UHGV virus genome: UHGV-0277743
From: a virus
Length of the DNA stretch: 11,098 bases
Reading direction: 5' to 3' (one strand)
Positions 1,291 to 11,000 of the stretch are shown piece by piece. The notes under the pieces were generated by a model. The model searched no databases, was not told the origin of the DNA, and saw only the letters and a program-made list of their open reading frames with translations. Position 1 is the first letter of the stretch; each line of letters begins with the position of its first letter. The position numbers were made by a program, and so were the translations under genes.

Positions 1291-1722
1291 TTAGGCGGCG
1301 TTAAACGCGTCCGGGTAGAGTTTCAGAATGTCGGCAATTTCCTGCTGAGAAAGTCCGTTGTGATCATTTATGTTCGCAAGATGGTTAATATGAGTGATCA
1401 CTTTCAGAACATCACCACGGCAGGAGAAACGGTAGCGAAGGTGTGTTCCGATACCATCAGGATTCTTTTCGTCGATACGCTCCAGAGTGATTCCAAGCTG
1501 GCGTTCTAACTCTGTTGCATAGTTACGACCAGAAGACAGATGGCAGTAGCGAAGAATGTCATTTTCTGTCCATCCCTCTATACCAGTACGCAGCATATAG
1601 ACTCTGGCACGATGCTTTTTCGGTGTGCGCTTTGGTGCTTGAAGGGATTTTGTAAGGGGCGTAACATCAGATACGCGAATATCTGAATTAGCCGCCTGTA
1701 ATGGGCGGTTTTTCTTTTCCAT
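1291..1722 (-). CDS. hypothetical protein (143 aa), basic N-terminus
   Basis: Start ATG 1720-1722 overlaps the alpA stop (TGATG arrangement), suggesting translational coupling. Lys/Arg-rich N-terminal stretch (PKRTPKKHRAR). No domain recognised. Confidence 0.6.
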   Translation of the reverse strand: MEKKNRPLQAANSDIRVSDVTPLTKSLQAPKRTPKKHRARVYMLRTGIEGWTENDILRYCHLSSGRNYATELERQLGITLERIDEKNPDGIGTHLRYRFSCRGDVLKVITHINHLANINDHNGLSQQEIADILKLYPDAFNAA

Positions 1723-1925
1723 CAGGCCACCTTCCCGCGGCGTTCTGCCAGCCAGTTGTGAATCTCAACCGCATCAAACGCAGTTATTTTTTCTCCCAGC
1801 TTTACCGGACGTGGTAGTGAACCGTTTCTTACTTTACGGTCGATGGTGGATACACTAACGCCCAGCAATTCAGCTAGGCGGAAGCGTCTGATATAGCCTT
1901 TTGTAGGAATAGTGTCGGTGTTCAT
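1722..1925 (-). CDS. alpA: AlpA-family prophage regulatory protein / excisionase-like HTH
   Basis: 67-aa product with the AlpA/Vis-type signature: FRLAELLGVSVSTIDRKVRNGSLPRPVKLGEKITAFDAVEIHNWLAERRG (HTH followed by a conserved W). Size and position next to an integrase are typical. Confidence 0.8.
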   Translation of the reverse strand: MNTDTIPTKGYIRRFRLAELLGVSVSTIDRKVRNGSLPRPVKLGEKITAFDAVEIHNWLAERRGKVA

Positions 1926-2039: not shown

Positions 2040-3005
2040 CTACCCCTTACCGTTGGCGGCAGCACGTAAGTGTCTCAAAATCACATCTTCATTTGTGATT
2101 GCTAACGGTGGAATTTCGTCTTTATGAGCCACTATGCAATCCCGCCACTTCTCAGGGCTTATTTCTTTCTTTTTGCCACGGCATTCATCAGGATACTTTG
2201 ACAAAAGATATATTGCTGATTTGAAAAGTTTTTCCCTGTTTTCAGCATGTCTCTCGGCATTATGGTTGCTATTTTTTATTTCAGGTATTAGTTCCTGTTC
2301 TACCGCCATTTCGTATCGTTTTTTGCTCTTAGCTGCGTCAAAACTTCCATTAACCTTTGCGTCGTGAAGGTATTCTAAATCAGCCTTTGTTATATAAATG
2401 TTTTTATCTGACAGGCTACTCAGGTGAATCTGGGAACTTTGCATTTTGAATTTATATAGATCACAATCAAATGTTGCTTCAAGTCGCACATATGGCTCTC
2501 CACATTCTTGTGAATGATAATGTCGTGTTGTACTACCGCGTACACGCAACAATCCACATGCAATTGATTTTCTTACAATAAAAGAGTTTTTGCCAATTTG
2601 TTCAAAAACATTTTTATTGTCTCTGTCTTCAACTGTCAGTGGTTTATGTGCATAAAATAGCTCATAAGCACCGCTTTCAGATGCTGGGATATAAACTTCG
2701 TTGCTTGCGCTGGTAATAAGAAAAGGAAATGTAAACCTTACTTCTTCTGGGTACATAAGTAATAAATCAGTTATAAAATCAGCATCTTTTTTGAAGTGGA
2801 TGGTGGCATCAGCTTCAATGAAATCAAGAAAGTCAGCATAGACATAAAAGTCTATATGTAGTCTATCTTTCCAATGCCATATATCATCAATTTCACAATT
2901 TAATAATTTTGATGCTCGCTCTATCGTGCAGTAGTCCAAAGGTGGGATACCTGATTCCTGCCATAAATTTCTATGCACCGCAGTTGTTTCATGAGAGTCG
3001 TTCAT
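2040..3005 (-). CDS. hypothetical protein (321 aa), AT-rich orphan gene in the integrase-alpA slot
   Basis: Complete ORF with AAGGTG 5 nt before the ATG at 3005 and its own terminator downstream. Hand counts on sample stretches give 32-37% GC, against about 57% in a sample of the integrase gene. No P-loop or other catalytic motif recognised. Confidence 0.7.
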   Translation of the reverse strand: MNDSHETTAVHRNLWQESGIPPLDYCTIERASKLLNCEIDDIWHWKDRLHIDFYVYADFLDFIEADATIHFKKDADFITDLLLMYPEEVRFTFPFLITSASNEVYIPASESGAYELFYAHKPLTVEDRDNKNVFEQIGKNSFIVRKSIACGLLRVRGSTTRHYHSQECGEPYVRLEATFDCDLYKFKMQSSQIHLSSLSDKNIYITKADLEYLHDAKVNGSFDAAKSKKRYEMAVEQELIPEIKNSNHNAERHAENREKLFKSAIYLLSKYPDECRGKKKEISPEKWRDCIVAHKDEIPPLAITNEDVILRHLRAAANGKG

Positions 3006-3100
3006 TGCGTCACCTTTTACGCTGCGCCTTATTTTGTGATTGAGCCAGGCGGTAAGGCTTCCCGCTTTTCGCCCCGTCGAGCTAGGCTCAATCTATTCAG

Positions 3101-4360
3101 TTAGTTCGCCCTTCTGAGAGGCGTTACGTTGTAGTCTTTTCCGCTTTCCAGTGCCACCAGCAGATCAGCCCACAGTGCCAGTGCTGCTTTACGCTCATCA
3201 AAATACTGATGGCGGTTATAAATCCCCTCTACGCCCTTAATGCGATGATTGAGGCATCGTTCCGCCACGACAGGATCAACACCCAACGCTGCTAAATGAG
3301 TACGTGCGGTGCGTCGGAAGTCGTGAATCGTGAAATTAGGCACATCCGGCATTTCGGCGCGAACCTTAGCCAGTGCTACGGGTAAAGTGCTTTCCTGAAT
3401 ATGTGGGATCATTCTGTTTTGCATTTTCCTGGCTGGAAGCACCCATGCGCTATTACATGAAAAGGTGTGTAGCTCTCTCAACCATTCAACGGCTGGGGAA
3501 GGTAGAGGTATATCAATAGGGTCTCCGTTTTTGCTGCGTTCTTCCGGCAAATGCCATACCGCACCATCTAAATCAAACTCTTCCCATCGTGCGGCGCATA
3601 ACTCCATCTTACGAACGCATAGTGCCAGCAATAGCTTAAATGTCAGTTCGTTCTGGCGGCTGAATCCTTTTGCGGTGCGCATAGCCTCGAATAGCCTGAT
3701 AAGCTCATCGCGAGTTAGCCAACGGTCGCGGGAAACCTCTTTACCACCAGCATCAGATACTTCAAACGCTGAACAAGGGTTTATCTCCAGAGCGTGGCGT
3801 TTTATCCCGTAGTCAAAGATACGGCGTGTCCAGCGTAATACATCTGTTGCTATCGTTGGTGCTCCTCGGTCAACGATACCTTTCAACATGTCGTCAATGT
3901 GGCGTGGCTTAACGTCCTCTACCTTCATATGCCCAATGCAGGGGTTAATATCCTTATCAATTCTCCGGCGAAGGATATCGGGATGTTTCCATCTCGGAAG
4001 TATCTGGCGCTCGAAGTATTCGGAGGCCAGATCTGAAACACGCATGGCGTTTTTCTCAGCCTCCATTTTTGCCAGTGCTTCAGCTTTTCGTTCCTGTTTC
4101 TCTGCTGCTACGTCATAGCCAAGAGCAACTCTGGCTGACAGCTCTTTGGCTGTCTCTCTGGCCTTTGATAGTGATAGCTCGCTATACGAACCAATTAGCA
4201 TGGCGCGGGACTTCCCTGCGAGTTTATAGCGGAATCTCCATGTGGGGGTTTTGTCGGCTTCACGGTAACGTAGGTATAAACCGTTACCGTCTGCCCGCCC
4301 CTCGAATCGCTCTCCGCTCTTAATCCATGCGCGGATCTGCATGTCTGTTAGTTTTGGCAT
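3101..4360 (-). CDS. int: tyrosine integrase, P4 family
   Basis: N-terminus MPKLTDMQIRAWIKSGERFEGRADGNGLYLRY matches the arm-binding domain pattern of P4-type integrases. C-terminus carries HDFRRT and CLNHRIKGVEGIYNRHQY (the H-x-x-R and catalytic Tyr region). Start trimmed from the track value 4501 to the ATG at 4358-4360, because the conserved N-terminus begins there and the extension would run through a terminator hairpin. Confidence 0.9.
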   Translation of the reverse strand: MPKLTDMQIRAWIKSGERFEGRADGNGLYLRYREADKTPTWRFRYKLAGKSRAMLIGSYSELSLSKARETAKELSARVALGYDVAAEKQERKAEALAKMEAEKNAMRVSDLASEYFERQILPRWKHPDILRRRIDKDINPCIGHMKVEDVKPRHIDDMLKGIVDRGAPTIATDVLRWTRRIFDYGIKRHALEINPCSAFEVSDAGGKEVSRDRWLTRDELIRLFEAMRTAKGFSRQNELTFKLLLALCVRKMELCAARWEEFDLDGAVWHLPEERSKNGDPIDIPLPSPAVEWLRELHTFSCNSAWVLPARKMQNRMIPHIQESTLPVALAKVRAEMPDVPNFTIHDFRRTARTHLAALGVDPVVAERCLNHRIKGVEGIYNRHQYFDERKAALALWADLLVALESGKDYNVTPLRRAN

Positions 4361-4390
4361 TTTGCGAATATCCAAACTTTGAATAGGGGG

Positions 4391-4442
4391 TGTACCCAAA
4401 GCAATGTACCCAAACCTCATTGGGTACACCTTTGTGTACACC
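4391..4442. promoter_or_regulatory. GTAC-core operator-like repeats in the int promoter region
   Basis: Two TGTACCCAAA copies (4391-4400, 4405-4414) followed by TGGGTACACC-TTT-GTGTACACC (4421-4442). The near-palindrome GGTGTACACC gives dyad symmetry. Sits 30-80 bp upstream of the int start codon. Confidence 0.45.
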
Positions 4443-4482
4443 ATAATCATGCGCTTTGTTGCGTCGTTATGATAGCTCATGA

Positions 4483-4513
4483 TAACAAAAAAGCCCGACA
4501 TTTCGCGGGCTTT
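4483..4513 (-). terminator. intrinsic terminator between the two-gene cassette and int
   Basis: Minus-strand RNA reads AAAGCCCG-cgaaaugu-CGGGCUUU followed by UUUGUUAUC. The same hairpin on the plus strand is followed by TATGGTTTTTT, so it may act in both directions, less well on the plus strand. Confidence 0.55.
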
Positions 4514-4632
4514 ATGGTTTTTTGCTGCTTGGTGATTTTTGCTGATAGCTTATTCGATATTCTGAATCTGTTTATTGAGTATGAGCCTCTATGCTGCGTG
4601 GTTACTGGATTCCTTGTAATGCTTCTTATAAT

Positions 4633-4655
4633 TAGGTACACCCATGTGTACACGG
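4633..4655. promoter_or_regulatory. second copy of the palindromic GGTACACC-n3-GTGTACAC module
   Basis: TAGGTACACC-CAT-GTGTACACGG aligns with 4421-4442 (TGGGTACACC-TTT-GTGTACACC). The GTAC cores are 12 bp apart in both copies. The two copies flank the terminator hairpin. Confidence 0.45.
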
Positions 4656-4791
4656 TATTTTGAGGTGCTGTCTTTGGCTGCTCATTTTATGCTCTCGTGC
4701 TTGCTGTTCTGGGCTACGTGCCAAACCGCAGCGAATACCTCCGTCTGCCAGATGAGCAAAACATACCTTATAAAGAAAATCGCTGTTTTTG

Positions 4792-4894
4792 CTGTACCAC
4801 CTGTACCACCATGTCACAAACCCTTGTGTGACGCGGCCTGCAGGTGGTACAGGTGGGTAAAAATGACCTCTCCCCACCTGTACAGACCTGTACC
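4792..4894. repeat. iteron cluster B with nested inverted repeats (candidate ori or attP core region)
   Basis: The 9-mer GGTACAGGT or its complement occurs at 4799-4807 (-), 4847-4855 (+) and 4886-4894 (-), with related copies at 4792-4798 and 4876-4884. A perfect 14-bp inverted repeat CCACCTGTACCACC (4797-4810) / GGTGGTACAGGTGG (4843-4856) encloses an inner 6-bp inverted repeat GTCACA (4813-4818) / TGTGAC (4827-4832) with an 8-bp spacer. Confidence 0.5.
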
Positions 4895-4900
4895 ATTTAT

Positions 4901-5638
4901 TTAATTTTTACCCATAGCAGCACATAATCCCTTTTTTGAAATATTGAAAAATGCGTTCATTCTTCCCGCTGGCTTAACCTTGTAGCCGCTTGCCACCATC
5001 GCCGCAATAAATGCTCCGTTGGGGATATAGTGCGGGTGATCACTGTGCTGGTGGTTTATCTGGTTATATCGCTCCACTTCATGCTTCAACGTGTCAGATG
5101 TGGGGTTATCCTGCGGGAAGCTCTCAATCTGGGCATTACTCATCCCGTTGTCTCTGATCCATCTCAGGCAGCTTTTCGCCGATACGATAAATGACGGGTT
5201 ATCAAGCGGGTTTTCCCAGTCCGCATTCCGGTTGTGGAGCGCCAGTCCGTCAAGGTTAAATTGTGGGTATTCAGCGGTAATTACTGTCACTGCGTGGCGG
5301 ATTTCAGTCTCGTCACAACATGGCTCATCTCCCACACCAGCAGGGTAATAATCTGAACCACCGGGACTGATACAGCGTTTACCACTGAAAGGCCATTGCT
5401 TCGCCATTTCGGGTGTTGAGTGATTACCGTCGCTCCGTTCGCGCTGTGCCTCTGTCCACTGGCTGGCATATTCAGTAAATGAAACCCTTTGCCCCTGACG
5501 CATCCAGTGCGCAATCATAATTAAAGTGCGTTCCAGACTTTGGATGTCGCCAGCATTCCCGCACTGTGTAGCGAAACTTTTTAATTCTTCGCGCTCCGTT
5601 CTGGTCATTCCCTGCGGTATGCAATAGTTATTGCTCAT
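4901..5638 (-). CDS. hypothetical protein (245 aa), second gene of a two-gene cassette
   Basis: ATG at 5636-5638 preceded by AGAGAGGT with a 5-nt spacer. Overlaps the upstream 76-aa gene by 11 nt. His-rich C-terminal patch (INHQHSDHPHYIPNG). No family recognised. Confidence 0.65.
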   Translation of the reverse strand: MSNNYCIPQGMTRTEREELKSFATQCGNAGDIQSLERTLIMIAHWMRQGQRVSFTEYASQWTEAQRERSDGNHSTPEMAKQWPFSGKRCISPGGSDYYPAGVGDEPCCDETEIRHAVTVITAEYPQFNLDGLALHNRNADWENPLDNPSFIVSAKSCLRWIRDNGMSNAQIESFPQDNPTSDTLKHEVERYNQINHQHSDHPHYIPNGAFIAAMVASGYKVKPAGRMNAFFNISKKGLCAAMGKN

Positions 5639-5902: not shown

Positions 5903-6005
5903 GGTATAGGTGGTACAGGTCTGGTATAGGTAAGACATTGACCTGTACCACTATAACACATTGTTTTTAATGCTGAATTAGCAAAGTGGTATAGGTGGTA
6001 CAGGT
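5903..6005. repeat. iteron cluster A immediately downstream of the primase-helicase gene (crr/ori-like)
   Basis: Identical 18-mer GGTATAGGTGGTACAGGT at 5903-5920 and 5988-6005; partial copy GGTATAGGT at 5923-5931; inverted copy ACCTGTACCACTATA at 5941-5955. The basic unit is the 9-mer GGTAYAGGT. Flanked by AT-rich sequence (6006-6034). Confidence 0.6.
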
Positions 6006-10754: not shown

Positions 10755-10913
10755 GTGGCAGCCTCTGATTCATGGTTTTGAGAACCACCACCGGAAACGC
10801 CAATTTCGCTGGTGGTGAACTGTACAGGGTTGGCGTAACCGGGAATCAGAGAAACCGGCGCGGATTGCTCCGCCCCCATACAGTCCACCATTGAACAGGT
10901 GTAACTGCGCGGC

Positions 10914-10939
10914 ACAAAAAAACACGCATGGCGCGTGTT
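10914..10939 (-). terminator. intrinsic terminator in the leader upstream of the early operon (candidate attenuator)
   Basis: Minus-strand RNA reads AACACGC-gccau-GCGUGUU followed by UUUUUGU, and the stem can extend with GCACAA/UUGUGC. Lies about 160 nt upstream of the first early gene. Confidence 0.45.
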
Positions 10940-11000
10940 GTGCGCTCTGATAATTACCGGGACGCCAATCCCGACACCAGATTTTGCTGGTGCGCTATAA

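What the first reader, a model, noticed from the sequence alone, without database searches (positions are those of the whole stretch)
4391..4655. Duplicated 21-bp palindromic module (GGTACACC-n3-GTGTACAC) flanking a terminator in the int upstream region
Two copies of an almost identical module lie about 212 bp apart on either side of the terminator hairpin (4483-4513). Each contains two GTAC-core sites 12 bp apart, close to the perfect palindrome GGTGTACACC. Two half-site-like TGTACCCAAA copies lie next to the int start. This looks like a pair of operators for a dimeric DNA-binding protein that could loop DNA across the terminator, for example integrase or AlpA autoregulation or a repressor. 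It is a different motif family from the GGTACAGGT iterons.
Basis: seen in the sequence. Interest (0 to 1): 0.5.

Follow-up and report, generated by a model that had tools for sequence, protein, structure and literature searches.

The report
Integrase arm sites of a satellite attP
The duplicated GTAC-core modules are real, but they are best read as the integrase "arm" binding sites that flank the recombination point (attP) of a small phage-satellite island that inserts at the end of the E. coli yicC gene, laid out like the attP of satellite phage P4. This is an ordinary, known kind of feature, here with unusually clean comparative support.

Summary
The 19-nt module occurs twice, 212 bp apart (0.04 matches expected by chance), and two further copies of the same 10-mer lie next to the int start.

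The window is a circularly permuted P4-like/PICI satellite. A four-way comparison of attP, attL, attR and attB places the recombination core at 4550-4570, the last 21 nt of host gene yicC. The terminator is not the centre of the arrangement.

Each module is a tandem, co-oriented pair of asymmetric about 11-bp sites with a 12-bp period, not a palindromic operator. There are six sites (consensus GTGTAC[C/A][C/T]AA): four on the int-side arm and two on the far arm.

The layout matches the annotated attP of phage P4 and the "doubled motif" published for helper-embedded PICIs, with offsets of about 76-83 and 129-136 bp from the attP centre.

In relatives at yicC:
- The site variant (GTACCCAA, GTACATAA or GTACCAA) changes in all copies together and tracks the variant of the integrase N-terminal arm-binding domain.
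- It does not track the AlpA variant or the primase type.

The hairpin is a minus-strand terminator. The element carries it to replace the yicC terminator and to shield int from read-through.

Verdict: a new member of a known kind, of low to moderate interest.

The parts
3101..4360 (-). Tyrosine integrase gene (419 aa, starts MPKLTD) with a P4-type N-terminal arm-binding domain, a central domain and a catalytic domain.
   Evidence: Pfam hits are PF13356 Arm-DNA-bind_3 (4.7e-20, residues 4-90), PF22022 and PF00589. Residues 3-91 match the solved arm-binding domains 3JTZ and 3JU0. The protein is 26% identical to P4 Int. The MPKLTD start is conserved in all relatives.
4389..4400 (+). Arm-type site a (GGTGTACCCAAA), on the P arm, inverted relative to sites c-f, 29 nt upstream of the int ATG.
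   Evidence: It changes to GTGTACATAA or GTGTACCAAA in relatives that carry other Int N-domain variants.
4403..4414 (+). Arm-type site b (AATGTACCCAAA), on the P arm, 14 bp after site a.
4420..4442 (-). Int-proximal doubled motif, made of arm-type sites c (4420-4430, GGTGTACCCAA on the minus strand) and d (4432-4442, GGTGTACACAA on the minus strand) with a 12-bp period.
   Evidence: Its centre lies 129 bp from the core centre and 136 bp from the inferred strand-exchange segment. The matching offsets are 134 bp in P4 and 132 +/- 2 bp in HE-PICIs.
4480..4513 (-). Intrinsic terminator read on the minus strand (stem 4490-4513, T-run TTTTTTGTTATC). After integration it sits just downstream of the yicC stop codon and upstream of int.
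   Evidence: The hairpin and the minus-strand T-run are conserved in five diverged relatives, with loop changes and one compensatory stem change. In attR it replaces the native yicC terminator, which is left on the attL/dinD side.
4550..4570 (.). attP core, a 21-bp identity block TTATTCGATATTCTGAATCTG. It equals the last 21 nt of yicC (reverse complement encodes ..QIQNIE-stop). Strand exchange is inferred to occur in GAATCTG, 4564-4570.
   Evidence: A four-way alignment of attP, attL, attR and attB, together with the yicC annotation. Polymorphisms at core positions 4-14 segregate between attL and attR in L060 and L061, which places the exchange to the right of position 14.
4632..4654 (-). Int-distal (P') doubled motif, made of arm-type sites e (4632-4643, GGGTGTACCTAA on the minus strand) and f (4644-4654, CGTGTACACAT on the minus strand) with a 12-bp period, co-oriented with c and d.
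   Evidence: In integrated copies it lies at the far end of the island next to dinD (attL). Its centre is 83 bp from the core centre and 76 bp from the exchange segment. The matching offsets are 75 bp in P4 and 81 +/- 2 bp in HE-PICIs.

Best explanation
Window 4361-4700 is the attP site of a P4-like/PICI phage satellite that integrates at the 3' end of yicC. The GTAC-core repeats are the arm-type binding sites for the N-terminal domain of the element's own integrase.

Shown:
- The core at 4550-4570 is the point where the homology of attP, attL, attR and attB switches.
- Six copies of an asymmetric roughly 11-bp site surround the core. Four are on the int-side arm (a and b inverted, c and d tandem) and two are on the other arm (e and f tandem, co-oriented with c and d, 212 bp away).
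- The adjacent int encodes a P4-type arm-binding domain.
- The layout matches the annotated P4 attP and the published doubled motif of HE-PICIs.
- In relatives, all copies of the site change together, and they change together with the Int N-domain variant. They do not change with the AlpA variant or the primase type.

Inferred:
- Int is heterobivalent. Its C-terminal domains bind and cut at the core while its N-terminal domains hold the arm sites.
- The four protomers of the recombining tetramer are therefore tethered to the two doubled motifs. 212 bp is about 20 helical turns, so both motifs lie on the same face of the DNA. The DNA between them wraps into an intasome that pairs with the yicC end.
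- The inverted sites a and b next to the int start probably serve the alternative (excisive) complex, Int autorepression, or both. The int promoter must lie in 4361-4482, among sites a-d.
- The hairpin at 4480-4513 is a minus-strand terminator that stays on the int side of the crossover. It ends yicC transcription after integration and shields int from upstream read-through in both the integrated and the circular state.
For: 1. attP identity.
- Window 3800-4570 is contiguous with int and yicC in E. coli chromosomes. Window 4560-4910 lies about 18 kb away, next to dinD, in the same genomes.
- The four-way alignment gives a 21-bp core.
- The window is circularly permuted relative to integrated copies.
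- Circular 12-19 kb records with an intact attP exist in E. coli, Klebsiella and Raoultella.

2. The integrase has the matching domain: PF13356 at 4.7e-20 and PDB 3JTZ and 3JU0.

3. Non-random clustering of the sites.

4. P4 (NC_001609) is annotated with the same order: int(-), one arm repeat(+) at the int start, two abutting 12-bp arm repeats(-), the core, two abutting 12-bp arm repeats(-), then the crr replication repeats and the primase operon.
- Tandem-to-core distances are 134 and 75 bp in P4 against 129-136 and 76-83 bp here.
- Tandem-to-tandem distance is 209 bp in P4 against 212 bp here.
- HE-PICIs have a doubled motif at 132 +/- 2 and 81 +/- 2 bp (PMC10111431).

5. Covariation between the sites and the Int N-domain.
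- N-domain LYLRYRE(A/V)D(K/R)(T/S)PTW goes with GTGTAC(C/A)CAA (window, L003, L057, L058, L059, L062, L011, L021, L065).
- N-domain LY(I/L)CYPKNYTxPFW goes with GTGTACAT(A/G)A at 28 of 30 sites (L060, L063, L004, L005, L061).
- N-domain LYLCYRESFASPKW goes with (G/A)TGTACCAA (L027).
- Window and L063 Int are identical in residues 100-205 and 99.5% identical in residues 210-419, yet only 84% identical in residues 1-95.
- For the same pair, codons 101-400 have pS of 0.02 or less, while codons 15-56 have pS 0.74 and pN 0.22.

6. Dissociation from other proteins.
- The window's AlpA is 100% identical to that of L063, which has the other site type. L003 has the window's sites, but its AlpA is 93% identical to that of the other site group.
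- The iterons follow the DUF5906 primase and not int.

7. The spacing from site c to site e is 210-213 bp in every relative.
Against: - No binding experiment exists for this element. Int binding is inferred.
- The covariation rests on about three site/N-domain classes. Their members are related by descent and by block recombination. The P arm is physically contiguous with the int 5' end, so part of the association could be simple linkage. The P' arm lies across the core, and 11-18 kb away when integrated, which makes it the more independent witness.
- No sigma-70-like int promoter was found in 4250-5000 by the consensus scan, so the autoregulatory role is unsupported here.
- No convincing IHF consensus lies between the arms and the core, so the bending factor is unidentified.
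- Site f (CGTGTACACAT) and site e (CCTAA) deviate from the consensus.
- The AlphaFold model of Int was of low confidence (mean pLDDT 47). Placing the variable residues 30-42 on a beta-hairpin is therefore only suggestive.
Confidence: 0.85

Rival explanations
1. The repeats are binding sites for the recombination directionality factor or regulator (the AlpA/Vis-like 67-aa protein, window 1722-1925) rather than for Int. They would control int transcription and excision.
For: - An AlpA-family gene is present (PF05930, 2.2e-8).
- In P4, Vis as well as Int represses the int promoter (PMC7286903).
- The authors of the HE-PICI doubled motif left AlpA open as a candidate binder.
- Sites a-d lie where the int promoter must be.
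Against: - The AlpA variant is uncoupled from the site variant. Window (R sites) and L063 (C sites) have 100% identical AlpA. L003 (R sites) has an AlpA 93% identical to that of the C-site elements and only 73% identical to the window's.
- Recombination directionality factor sites are normally on one arm only, whereas these repeats are on both arms.
- The P4 record labels the equivalent repeats as attP arm repeats.
Confidence: 0.07
2. The repeats are a pair of palindromic operators for a dimeric repressor that loops DNA across the terminator to control int.
For: In this window each half-site is close to the palindrome GGTGTACACC, and the two modules can be drawn as inverted repeats (I2 and I17). 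They also lie upstream of int.
Against: - In relatives the modules are plainly direct repeats (TTATGTACACC / CTATGTACACG), and only the TGTACA core is self-complementary.
- In the integrated state the two modules are 11-18 kb apart at opposite ends of the island, so a fixed operator loop cannot exist there.
- No candidate repressor covaries with the sites.
Confidence: 0.04
3. The repeats are replication or partition iterons, part of the same system as the GGTACAGG repeats and bound by the primase/initiator.
For: They share a GGTAC/GTAC core with the iterons at 4792-4895. In P4 the crr replication repeats sit just beyond attP.
Against: Relatives with identical arm sites but other primases (L057, L058, L059, L004, L005) have no GGTACAGG iterons. 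Relatives with the same primase and iterons (L060, L063) have the other arm-site variant.
Confidence: 0.02
4. The repeats are a chance cluster of GTAC-containing words with no function.
For: The motifs are short, and GTAC is self-complementary, which inflates the inverted-repeat calls.
Against: - The shuffle statistics argue against chance.
- The position is conserved (210-213 bp spacing), and the sites change in concert across diverged relatives in three genera.
Confidence: 0.01

Closest known systems
attP of satellite phage P4 (NC_001609: 'attP arm sequence repeat' features and the 20-bp core; Pierson & Kahn 1987 as cited in PMC7286903)
   Same: - The gene and site order is the same: int reading away from attP, an inverted arm repeat at the int start, two abutting co-oriented 12-bp arm repeats, the core, two more abutting co-oriented 12-bp arm repeats, then the replication repeats and the primase operon.
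- Distances are nearly the same: 134 and 75 bp in P4 against 129-136 and 76-83 bp here, and 209 against 212 bp between the doubled repeats.
- The integrase has the same PF13356 arm-binding domain.
   Different: - The site sequence differs: TTGGGGGCAYAW in P4 against GTGTACMYAA here.
- The target differs: a leucine tRNA gene for P4 (as cited in PMC7286903) against the 3' end of the protein gene yicC.
- The integrases are only 26% identical.
- This element carries a terminator in the P arm that replaces the terminator of the target gene.
- There are two inverted sites near int here, against one annotated in P4.
The 'doubled motif' of helper-embedded PICIs (tgTGTATTGCantgTGTATTGCa; Mageeney et al. 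2023, PMC10111431)
   Same: It is a tandem doubled motif present in two co-oriented copies, at 81 +/- 2 bp on one side and 132 +/- 2 bp on the other side of the attP centre, in PICIs with P4-clade integrases and AlpA.
   Different: - The core sequence is different.
- That paper reported the motif as unique to HE-PICIs and left the binder open (Int arm domains, AlpA or unknown).
- Here a different-sequence equivalent is found in yicC PICIs, and covariation points to the Int N-domain and away from AlpA.
Lambda-type heterobivalent integrase arm sites (P1, P2, P'1-3) and the intasome
   Same: Arm sites distinct in sequence from the core lie on both sides of it and are bound by a separate N-terminal domain. 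Different subsets are used for integration and excision. This is general knowledge, summarised in PMC2951348.
   Different: The arm-binding domain family differs (PF13356, P4 type). The number, spacing and orientation of sites differ. No IHF or Xis-type sites could be recognised here.
KplE1 intS and P4 int autoregulation (int promoter embedded in arm-type and RDF sites)
   Same: The int start lies directly next to arm-type sites, so the int promoter must overlap them. In KplE1 and P4, Int and the recombination directionality factor repress int (PMC2951348; PMC7286903).
   Different: No promoter was identified here, and there is no expression data. This role is an analogy only.

Membership tests
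Arm-type sites of an attP for a heterobivalent tyrosine integrase | An adjacent integrase carries a dedicated N-terminal arm-binding domain. | tested here: met
   PF13356 at 4.7e-20 over residues 4-90. Residues 3-91 match the arm-binding domain structures 3JTZ and 3JU0.
Arm-type sites of an attP for a heterobivalent tyrosine integrase | The repeats flank the crossover core on both sides, within the attP. | tested here: met
   The core at 4550-4570 is defined by the alignment of attP, attL, attR and attB. Sites a-d lie 108-161 bp to its left and sites e-f lie 62-104 bp to its right.
Arm-type sites of an attP for a heterobivalent tyrosine integrase | The arm-site sequence is unrelated to the core-type sequence. 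| tested here: met
   The core TTATTCGATATTCTGAATCTG contains no GTGTAC-type word.
Arm-type sites of an attP for a heterobivalent tyrosine integrase | Site specificity is determined by the Int N-terminal domain. | tested here: inconclusive
   In every element examined, the three N-domain variants co-occur with the three site variants. There is no such association with AlpA or the primase. The evidence is comparative only, with few independent classes and partial physical linkage.
Arm-type sites of an attP for a heterobivalent tyrosine integrase | Int binds the sites directly, and the sites are required for recombination. | not testable with these tools
   This needs EMSA or footprinting and in vivo or in vitro recombination with mutated sites.
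P4-type attP architecture | Two co-oriented doubled repeats (12-bp period) lie about 210 bp apart and asymmetrically around the core, at about 130 bp on the int side and about 80 bp on the far side. | tested here: met
   Here the two doubled motifs are 212 bp apart, at 129-136 and 76-83 bp from the attP centre. In P4 the values are 209 bp, 134 and 75 bp. In HE-PICIs the offsets are 132 +/- 2 and 81 +/- 2 bp. The spacing is 210-213 bp in all relatives.
P4-type attP architecture | An inverted arm repeat lies next to the int start, and the replication repeats and primase operon lie beyond the far arm. | tested here: met
   Sites a and b (+) are at 4389-4414. The iterons are at 4792-4895, next to the 3' end of the primase operon. 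P4 has an arm repeat(+) at 3915-3926, followed by crr and alpha.
   In C-type relatives the modules are TTATGTACACC-T-CTATGTACACG, which is a direct repeat. Only the TGTACA core is self-complementary.
   After integration, module 2 lies at attL next to dinD, 11-18 kb from int.
Gram-negative PICI / P4-like satellite integrated at yicC | The element has an int, alpA, primase and regulatory-RNA gene set, a size of about 10-19 kb, and a specific attB at the yicC 3' end. | tested here: met
   Int, AlpA (PF05930), AntA, Ash and a Toprim/DUF5906 primase are present, as are the C4, isrK and int-alpA RNAs. A match to the attP region, next to yicC in the listed hits, was found in 481 of 5426 complete E. 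coli genomes. PICIs at yicC are mentioned in 10.1101/2022.07.18.500453. Helper dependence was not tested.

The most novel reading that the evidence does not exclude
The cassette made of the Int N-domain and its arm sites may be an exchangeable specificity module that is kept separate from core specificity. Islands competing for the same yicC attB carry integrases with nearly identical core-binding and catalytic domains but at least three mutually distinct pairs of arm-domain and arm-site. These may form orthogonal 'private' intasomes, so that co-resident or tandem satellites do not excise, integrate or repress one another. The mosaic int genes are compatible with this. Between the window and L063, codons 101-400 have pS of 0.02 or less, while codons 15-56 have pS 0.74 and pN 0.22. 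The converse pattern holds against L057 and L059.
Probability: 0.2. Interest if true: 0.55.

Novelty: new member of a known kind. Interest (0 to 1): 0.3.

Why it matters
- It explains a conspicuous repeat structure as part of a complete, precisely mapped attP (arms, core and a replacement terminator) for a very common family of E. coli, Klebsiella and Raoultella phage satellites at yicC.
- It shows that the "doubled motif at about 80 and about 130 bp" geometry is not peculiar to helper-embedded PICIs. It is shared with P4 and the yicC PICIs under different site sequences.
- The natural swaps of the N-domain and arm sites give comparative evidence on a question the literature left open: whether Int arm domains or AlpA read these motifs.
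- They also supply ready-made matched and mismatched Int/attP pairs, useful for testing arm specificity or for building orthogonal integration tools.
- None of this changes the accepted picture of tyrosine-integrase recombination.

Tried and rejected
- A megablast of the region against the phage collection found nothing.
- ARAGORN found no tRNA in the window, so the target is not a tRNA gene.
- Rfam found nothing in 4361-4900.
- The sigma-70 consensus scan found no promoter in 4250-5000, so the int promoter remains unplaced.
- The IHF consensus WATCAANNNNTTR occurs at chance frequency, with no convincing site between the arms and the core.
- Most IMG/VR relatives are cut exactly at the int start and gave no upstream DNA. 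Only L011, L020, L021 and L027 were usable.
- The single-sequence AlphaFold model of Int had mean pLDDT 47. It was not used beyond a tentative secondary-structure remark, and no fold search was run.
- The int of the Raoultella record L066 is frameshifted, so it could not be classed by N-domain.
- The ORFs that cross the region (4379-4663 on the plus strand, 4477-4653 on the minus strand) were considered and dismissed as spurious. The PGAP int start at 4420 in two genomes is probably over-extended.
- The terminator-like call on 4636-4651 is a by-product of two adjacent GTAC-core sites.

Full report
**1. The observation**

The sequence is as described.
- GGTACACC-TTT-GTGTACAC lies at 4423-4441 and GGTACACC-CAT-GTGTACAC at 4635-4653, 212 bp apart.
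- The 19-nt pattern has two exact copies against 0.04 expected from shuffles.
- All three exact GGTACACC words of the 11-kb window lie in 4389-4642.
- TGTACCCAAA occurs at 4391 and 4405.
- A hairpin with a T-run lies at 4490-4513.

**2. The element**

- The minus-strand gene at 3101-4360 is a tyrosine integrase with a P4-type arm-binding domain (PF13356, 4.7e-20), a central domain and a catalytic domain.
- Its first 90 residues match the solved arm-binding domains of the Yersinia HPI and HAI7 integrases (3JTZ, 3JU0).
- The rest of the window encodes AlpA (PF05930), AntA, Ash and a Toprim/DUF5906 primase.
- It also carries the C4, isrK and int-alpA RNA motifs.
- This is the gene set of a P4-like satellite or Gram-negative PICI.

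**3. The region is attP**

- In E. coli chromosomes, window 3800-4570 is contiguous with int followed by yicC.
- Window 4560-4910 sits about 18 kb away, next to dinD, in the same genomes.
- The two ends of the window are contiguous in the chromosomal copy. The window is therefore the circularised, or circularly permuted, form of the island.
- I aligned the window with attL and attR of strain A3 and with the empty site of K-12. Homology switches at a 21-bp block, TTATTCGATATTCTGAATCTG, at window 4550-4570. This block is the last 21 nt of yicC, stop codon included.
- Polymorphisms within the block segregate between attL and attR in strains E57 and O157:H7 6535NalR. This places strand exchange in the right-hand GAATCTG, 4564-4570.
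- A match to the attP region, next to yicC in the listed hits, was found in 481 of 5426 complete E. coli genomes.
- Circular 12-19 kb records carrying an intact attP exist in E. coli, Klebsiella and Raoultella.
- PICIs at yicC are mentioned in the literature (10.1101/2022.07.18.500453).

**4. Anatomy of the repeats**

Read in one orientation, there are six copies of an asymmetric site with consensus (G)GTGTAC[C/A][C/T]AA.

| Site | Coordinates | Strand | Arm |
|---|---|---|---|
| a | 4389-4400 | + | P (int side) |
| b | 4403-4414 | + | P (int side) |
| c | 4420-4430 | - | P (int side) |
| d | 4432-4442 | - | P (int side) |
| e | 4632-4643 | - | P' (far side) |
| f | 4644-4654 | - | P' (far side) |

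- The 10-mer with at most one mismatch gives 8 matches in the window against 1.9 expected, and 7 of them are here.
- The palindromic look comes from the self-complementary TGTACA core. In relatives the modules read TTATGTACACC / CTATGTACACG, which are plain direct repeats.

**5. Comparison with P4 and HE-PICIs**

The P4 record (NC_001609) annotates the same order:
- int(-);
- an 'attP arm sequence repeat'(+) at the int start;
- two abutting 12-bp arm repeats(-);
- the 20-bp core;
- two abutting 12-bp arm repeats(-);
- then the crr replication repeats and the alpha primase operon.

| Element | Int-side doubled motif to attP centre | Far-side doubled motif to attP centre | Between the doubled motifs |
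|---|---|---|---|
| P4 | 134 bp | 75 bp | 209 bp |
| This window | 129-136 bp | 76-83 bp | 212 bp |
| HE-PICIs | 132 +/- 2 bp | 81 +/- 2 bp | about 213 bp |

- The range given for the window depends on whether the core centre or the exchange segment is taken as the attP centre.
- Mageeney et al. 2023 (PMC10111431) described the HE-PICI motif as a 'doubled motif' (tgTGTATTGCantgTGTATTGCa) in two co-oriented copies. They left open whether Int arm domains, AlpA or something else binds it, and they reported it as unique to HE-PICIs.
- The same geometry therefore recurs in three lineages with three unrelated site sequences.

**6. Which protein reads the sites**

I compared eleven further elements at yicC, four IMG/VR loci and a Klebsiella circle.

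| Int N-domain variant | Site variant | Elements |
|---|---|---|
| LYLRYRE(A/V)D(K/R)(T/S)PTW | GTGTAC(C/A)CAA | window, L003, L057, L058, L059, L062, L011, L021, L065 |
| LY(I/L)CYPKNYTxPFW | GTGTACAT(A/G)A (28 of 30 sites) | L060, L063, L004, L005, L061 |
| LYLCYRESFASPKW | (G/A)TGTACCAA | L027 |

- Within each element all copies, on both arms, carry the same variant. The sites have changed in concert.
- The window's Int and that of strain G3X16-2 (L063) are 100% identical over residues 100-205 and 99.5% identical over residues 210-419. They are only 84% identical over residues 1-95.
- At the DNA level for the same pair, codons 101-400 have pS of 0.02 or less, while codons 15-56 have pS 0.74 and pN 0.22.
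- Conversely, L057 and L059 share the window's N-domain and sites but are diverged in the rest of int.
- The N-domain and the attP arms therefore move as one cassette.
- AlpA does not follow the sites. The window's AlpA is identical to that of L063, which has the other site type. Strain A3, which has the window's sites, has an AlpA 93% identical to that of the other group.
- The GGTACAGG iterons (4792-4895 and 5910-6005) occur only with the 784-aa DUF5906 primase, whatever the arm type. They are absent from elements that have the window's arm sites but other primases.

Caveat: there are few independent classes, and the P arm is physically linked to the int 5' end. The P' arm is the more independent witness.

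**7. The terminator**

- Read on the minus strand, the hairpin is followed by TTTTTTGTTATC.
- This hairpin and its T-run are conserved in five diverged relatives while the flanking sequence is not. The loops differ, and one stem pair changes in a compensatory way.
- The plus-strand T-run is not conserved.
- The terminator lies on the int side of the crossover. In attR it sits right after the yicC stop, and the native yicC terminator is left at attL.
- It most likely terminates yicC after integration. In both the integrated and the circular state it would keep upstream transcription out of int.

**8. Mechanism**

This section is inferred. Int acts as a heterobivalent recombinase. The catalytic and core-binding domains work at 4550-4570 and at the yicC end. 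The N-domains hold the two doubled motifs, which lie about 20 helical turns apart and so on the same face of the DNA. The arms fold onto the core as an intasome. Sites a and b, inverted and 29-53 nt from the int ATG, may serve the excisive complex, Int autorepression, or both. P4 and KplE1 give precedents for autorepression. Neither a promoter nor an IHF site could be recognised.

**9. Verdict**

- The feature is a P4-type attP with arm-type sites, a new member of a known kind.
- The modest new points are two. The 'doubled motif' geometry extends to the yicC PICIs and to P4. Natural domain swaps point to the Int N-domain, not AlpA, as its reader.

Noticed in passing
window 4792-4895 and 5910-6005: There are two clusters of GGTACAGG/CTGTACCAC iterons, flanking the 245-aa and 76-aa genes just downstream of the primase gene. 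They are present only in relatives with the 784-aa DUF5906 primase and are independent of the int/arm type. They probably correspond to P4's ori and crr type-1 repeats bound by the primase.
   Followed up: partly
window 3026-3092 (-), 10808-10895 (-), 10917-10993 (-): Three Rfam gathering-score hits: int-alpA RNA just downstream of int, plus C4 antisense RNA and isrK, which make up a P4/P1-type immunity RNA region.
   Followed up: no
window 1 and 11098; L001 10278-10279: The window ends are contiguous in chromosomal copies, so the window is a circular permutation (an excised circle or a tandem junction). Related 12-19 kb circular 'plasmid' records with an intact attP exist in E. coli, Klebsiella pneumoniae and Raoultella.
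   Followed up: partly
L003 20352-28150; L001 1-4567; L060 and L063 equivalents: Chromosomal islands with this int are about 18 kb rather than 11 kb. Between the P' arm and the primase operon they carry PerC, Abi and toxin genes and P22-like DNA ejection/injection protein genes. Strain A3 also has a second copy of window 4701-4910. Recombination between the two copies would yield the window's shorter form.
   Followed up: partly
attL cores of L057 (about 290-310) and L063 (about 300-320): The attL copy of the core lacks 2 bp (ATTCTGAATCTG becomes ATTGAATCTG) relative to attR and attP. This shortens the reconstructed spacing between the doubled motifs to 210 bp. It recalls the att-site 'damage' and 'drift' described for PICIs.
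   Followed up: no
window 4444-4482 and 4543-4549: This is a strongly conserved segment between arm site d and the terminator. It contains the tandem ATGATAGCTC / ATGATAACAA, and TGATAGC recurs immediately left of the core. It is a candidate binding region for AlpA (the recombination directionality factor) or a bending protein.
   Followed up: no
window 4361-4420: RefSeq annotation of the identical int in strains A3 and Res13 starts 20 codons upstream, at the ATG at 4420 inside arm site c. All relatives conserve the MPKLTD start at 4360, so the long form is probably an over-extension.
   Followed up: partly
int codons 1-100 (window 4061-4360) versus the rest of int: The int gene is a recombination mosaic. 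Against L063, codons 101-400 are nearly identical at the DNA level while codons 15-56 are saturated at synonymous sites and have pN 0.22. Against L057 and L059 the pattern is reversed.
   Followed up: yes
window 2749-2758: There is a single extra near-match to the arm-site 10-mer (GGGTACATAA) inside the 321-aa ORF downstream of int. It is probably chance, although P4 also has one annotated arm repeat inside a coding region (within int).
   Followed up: no
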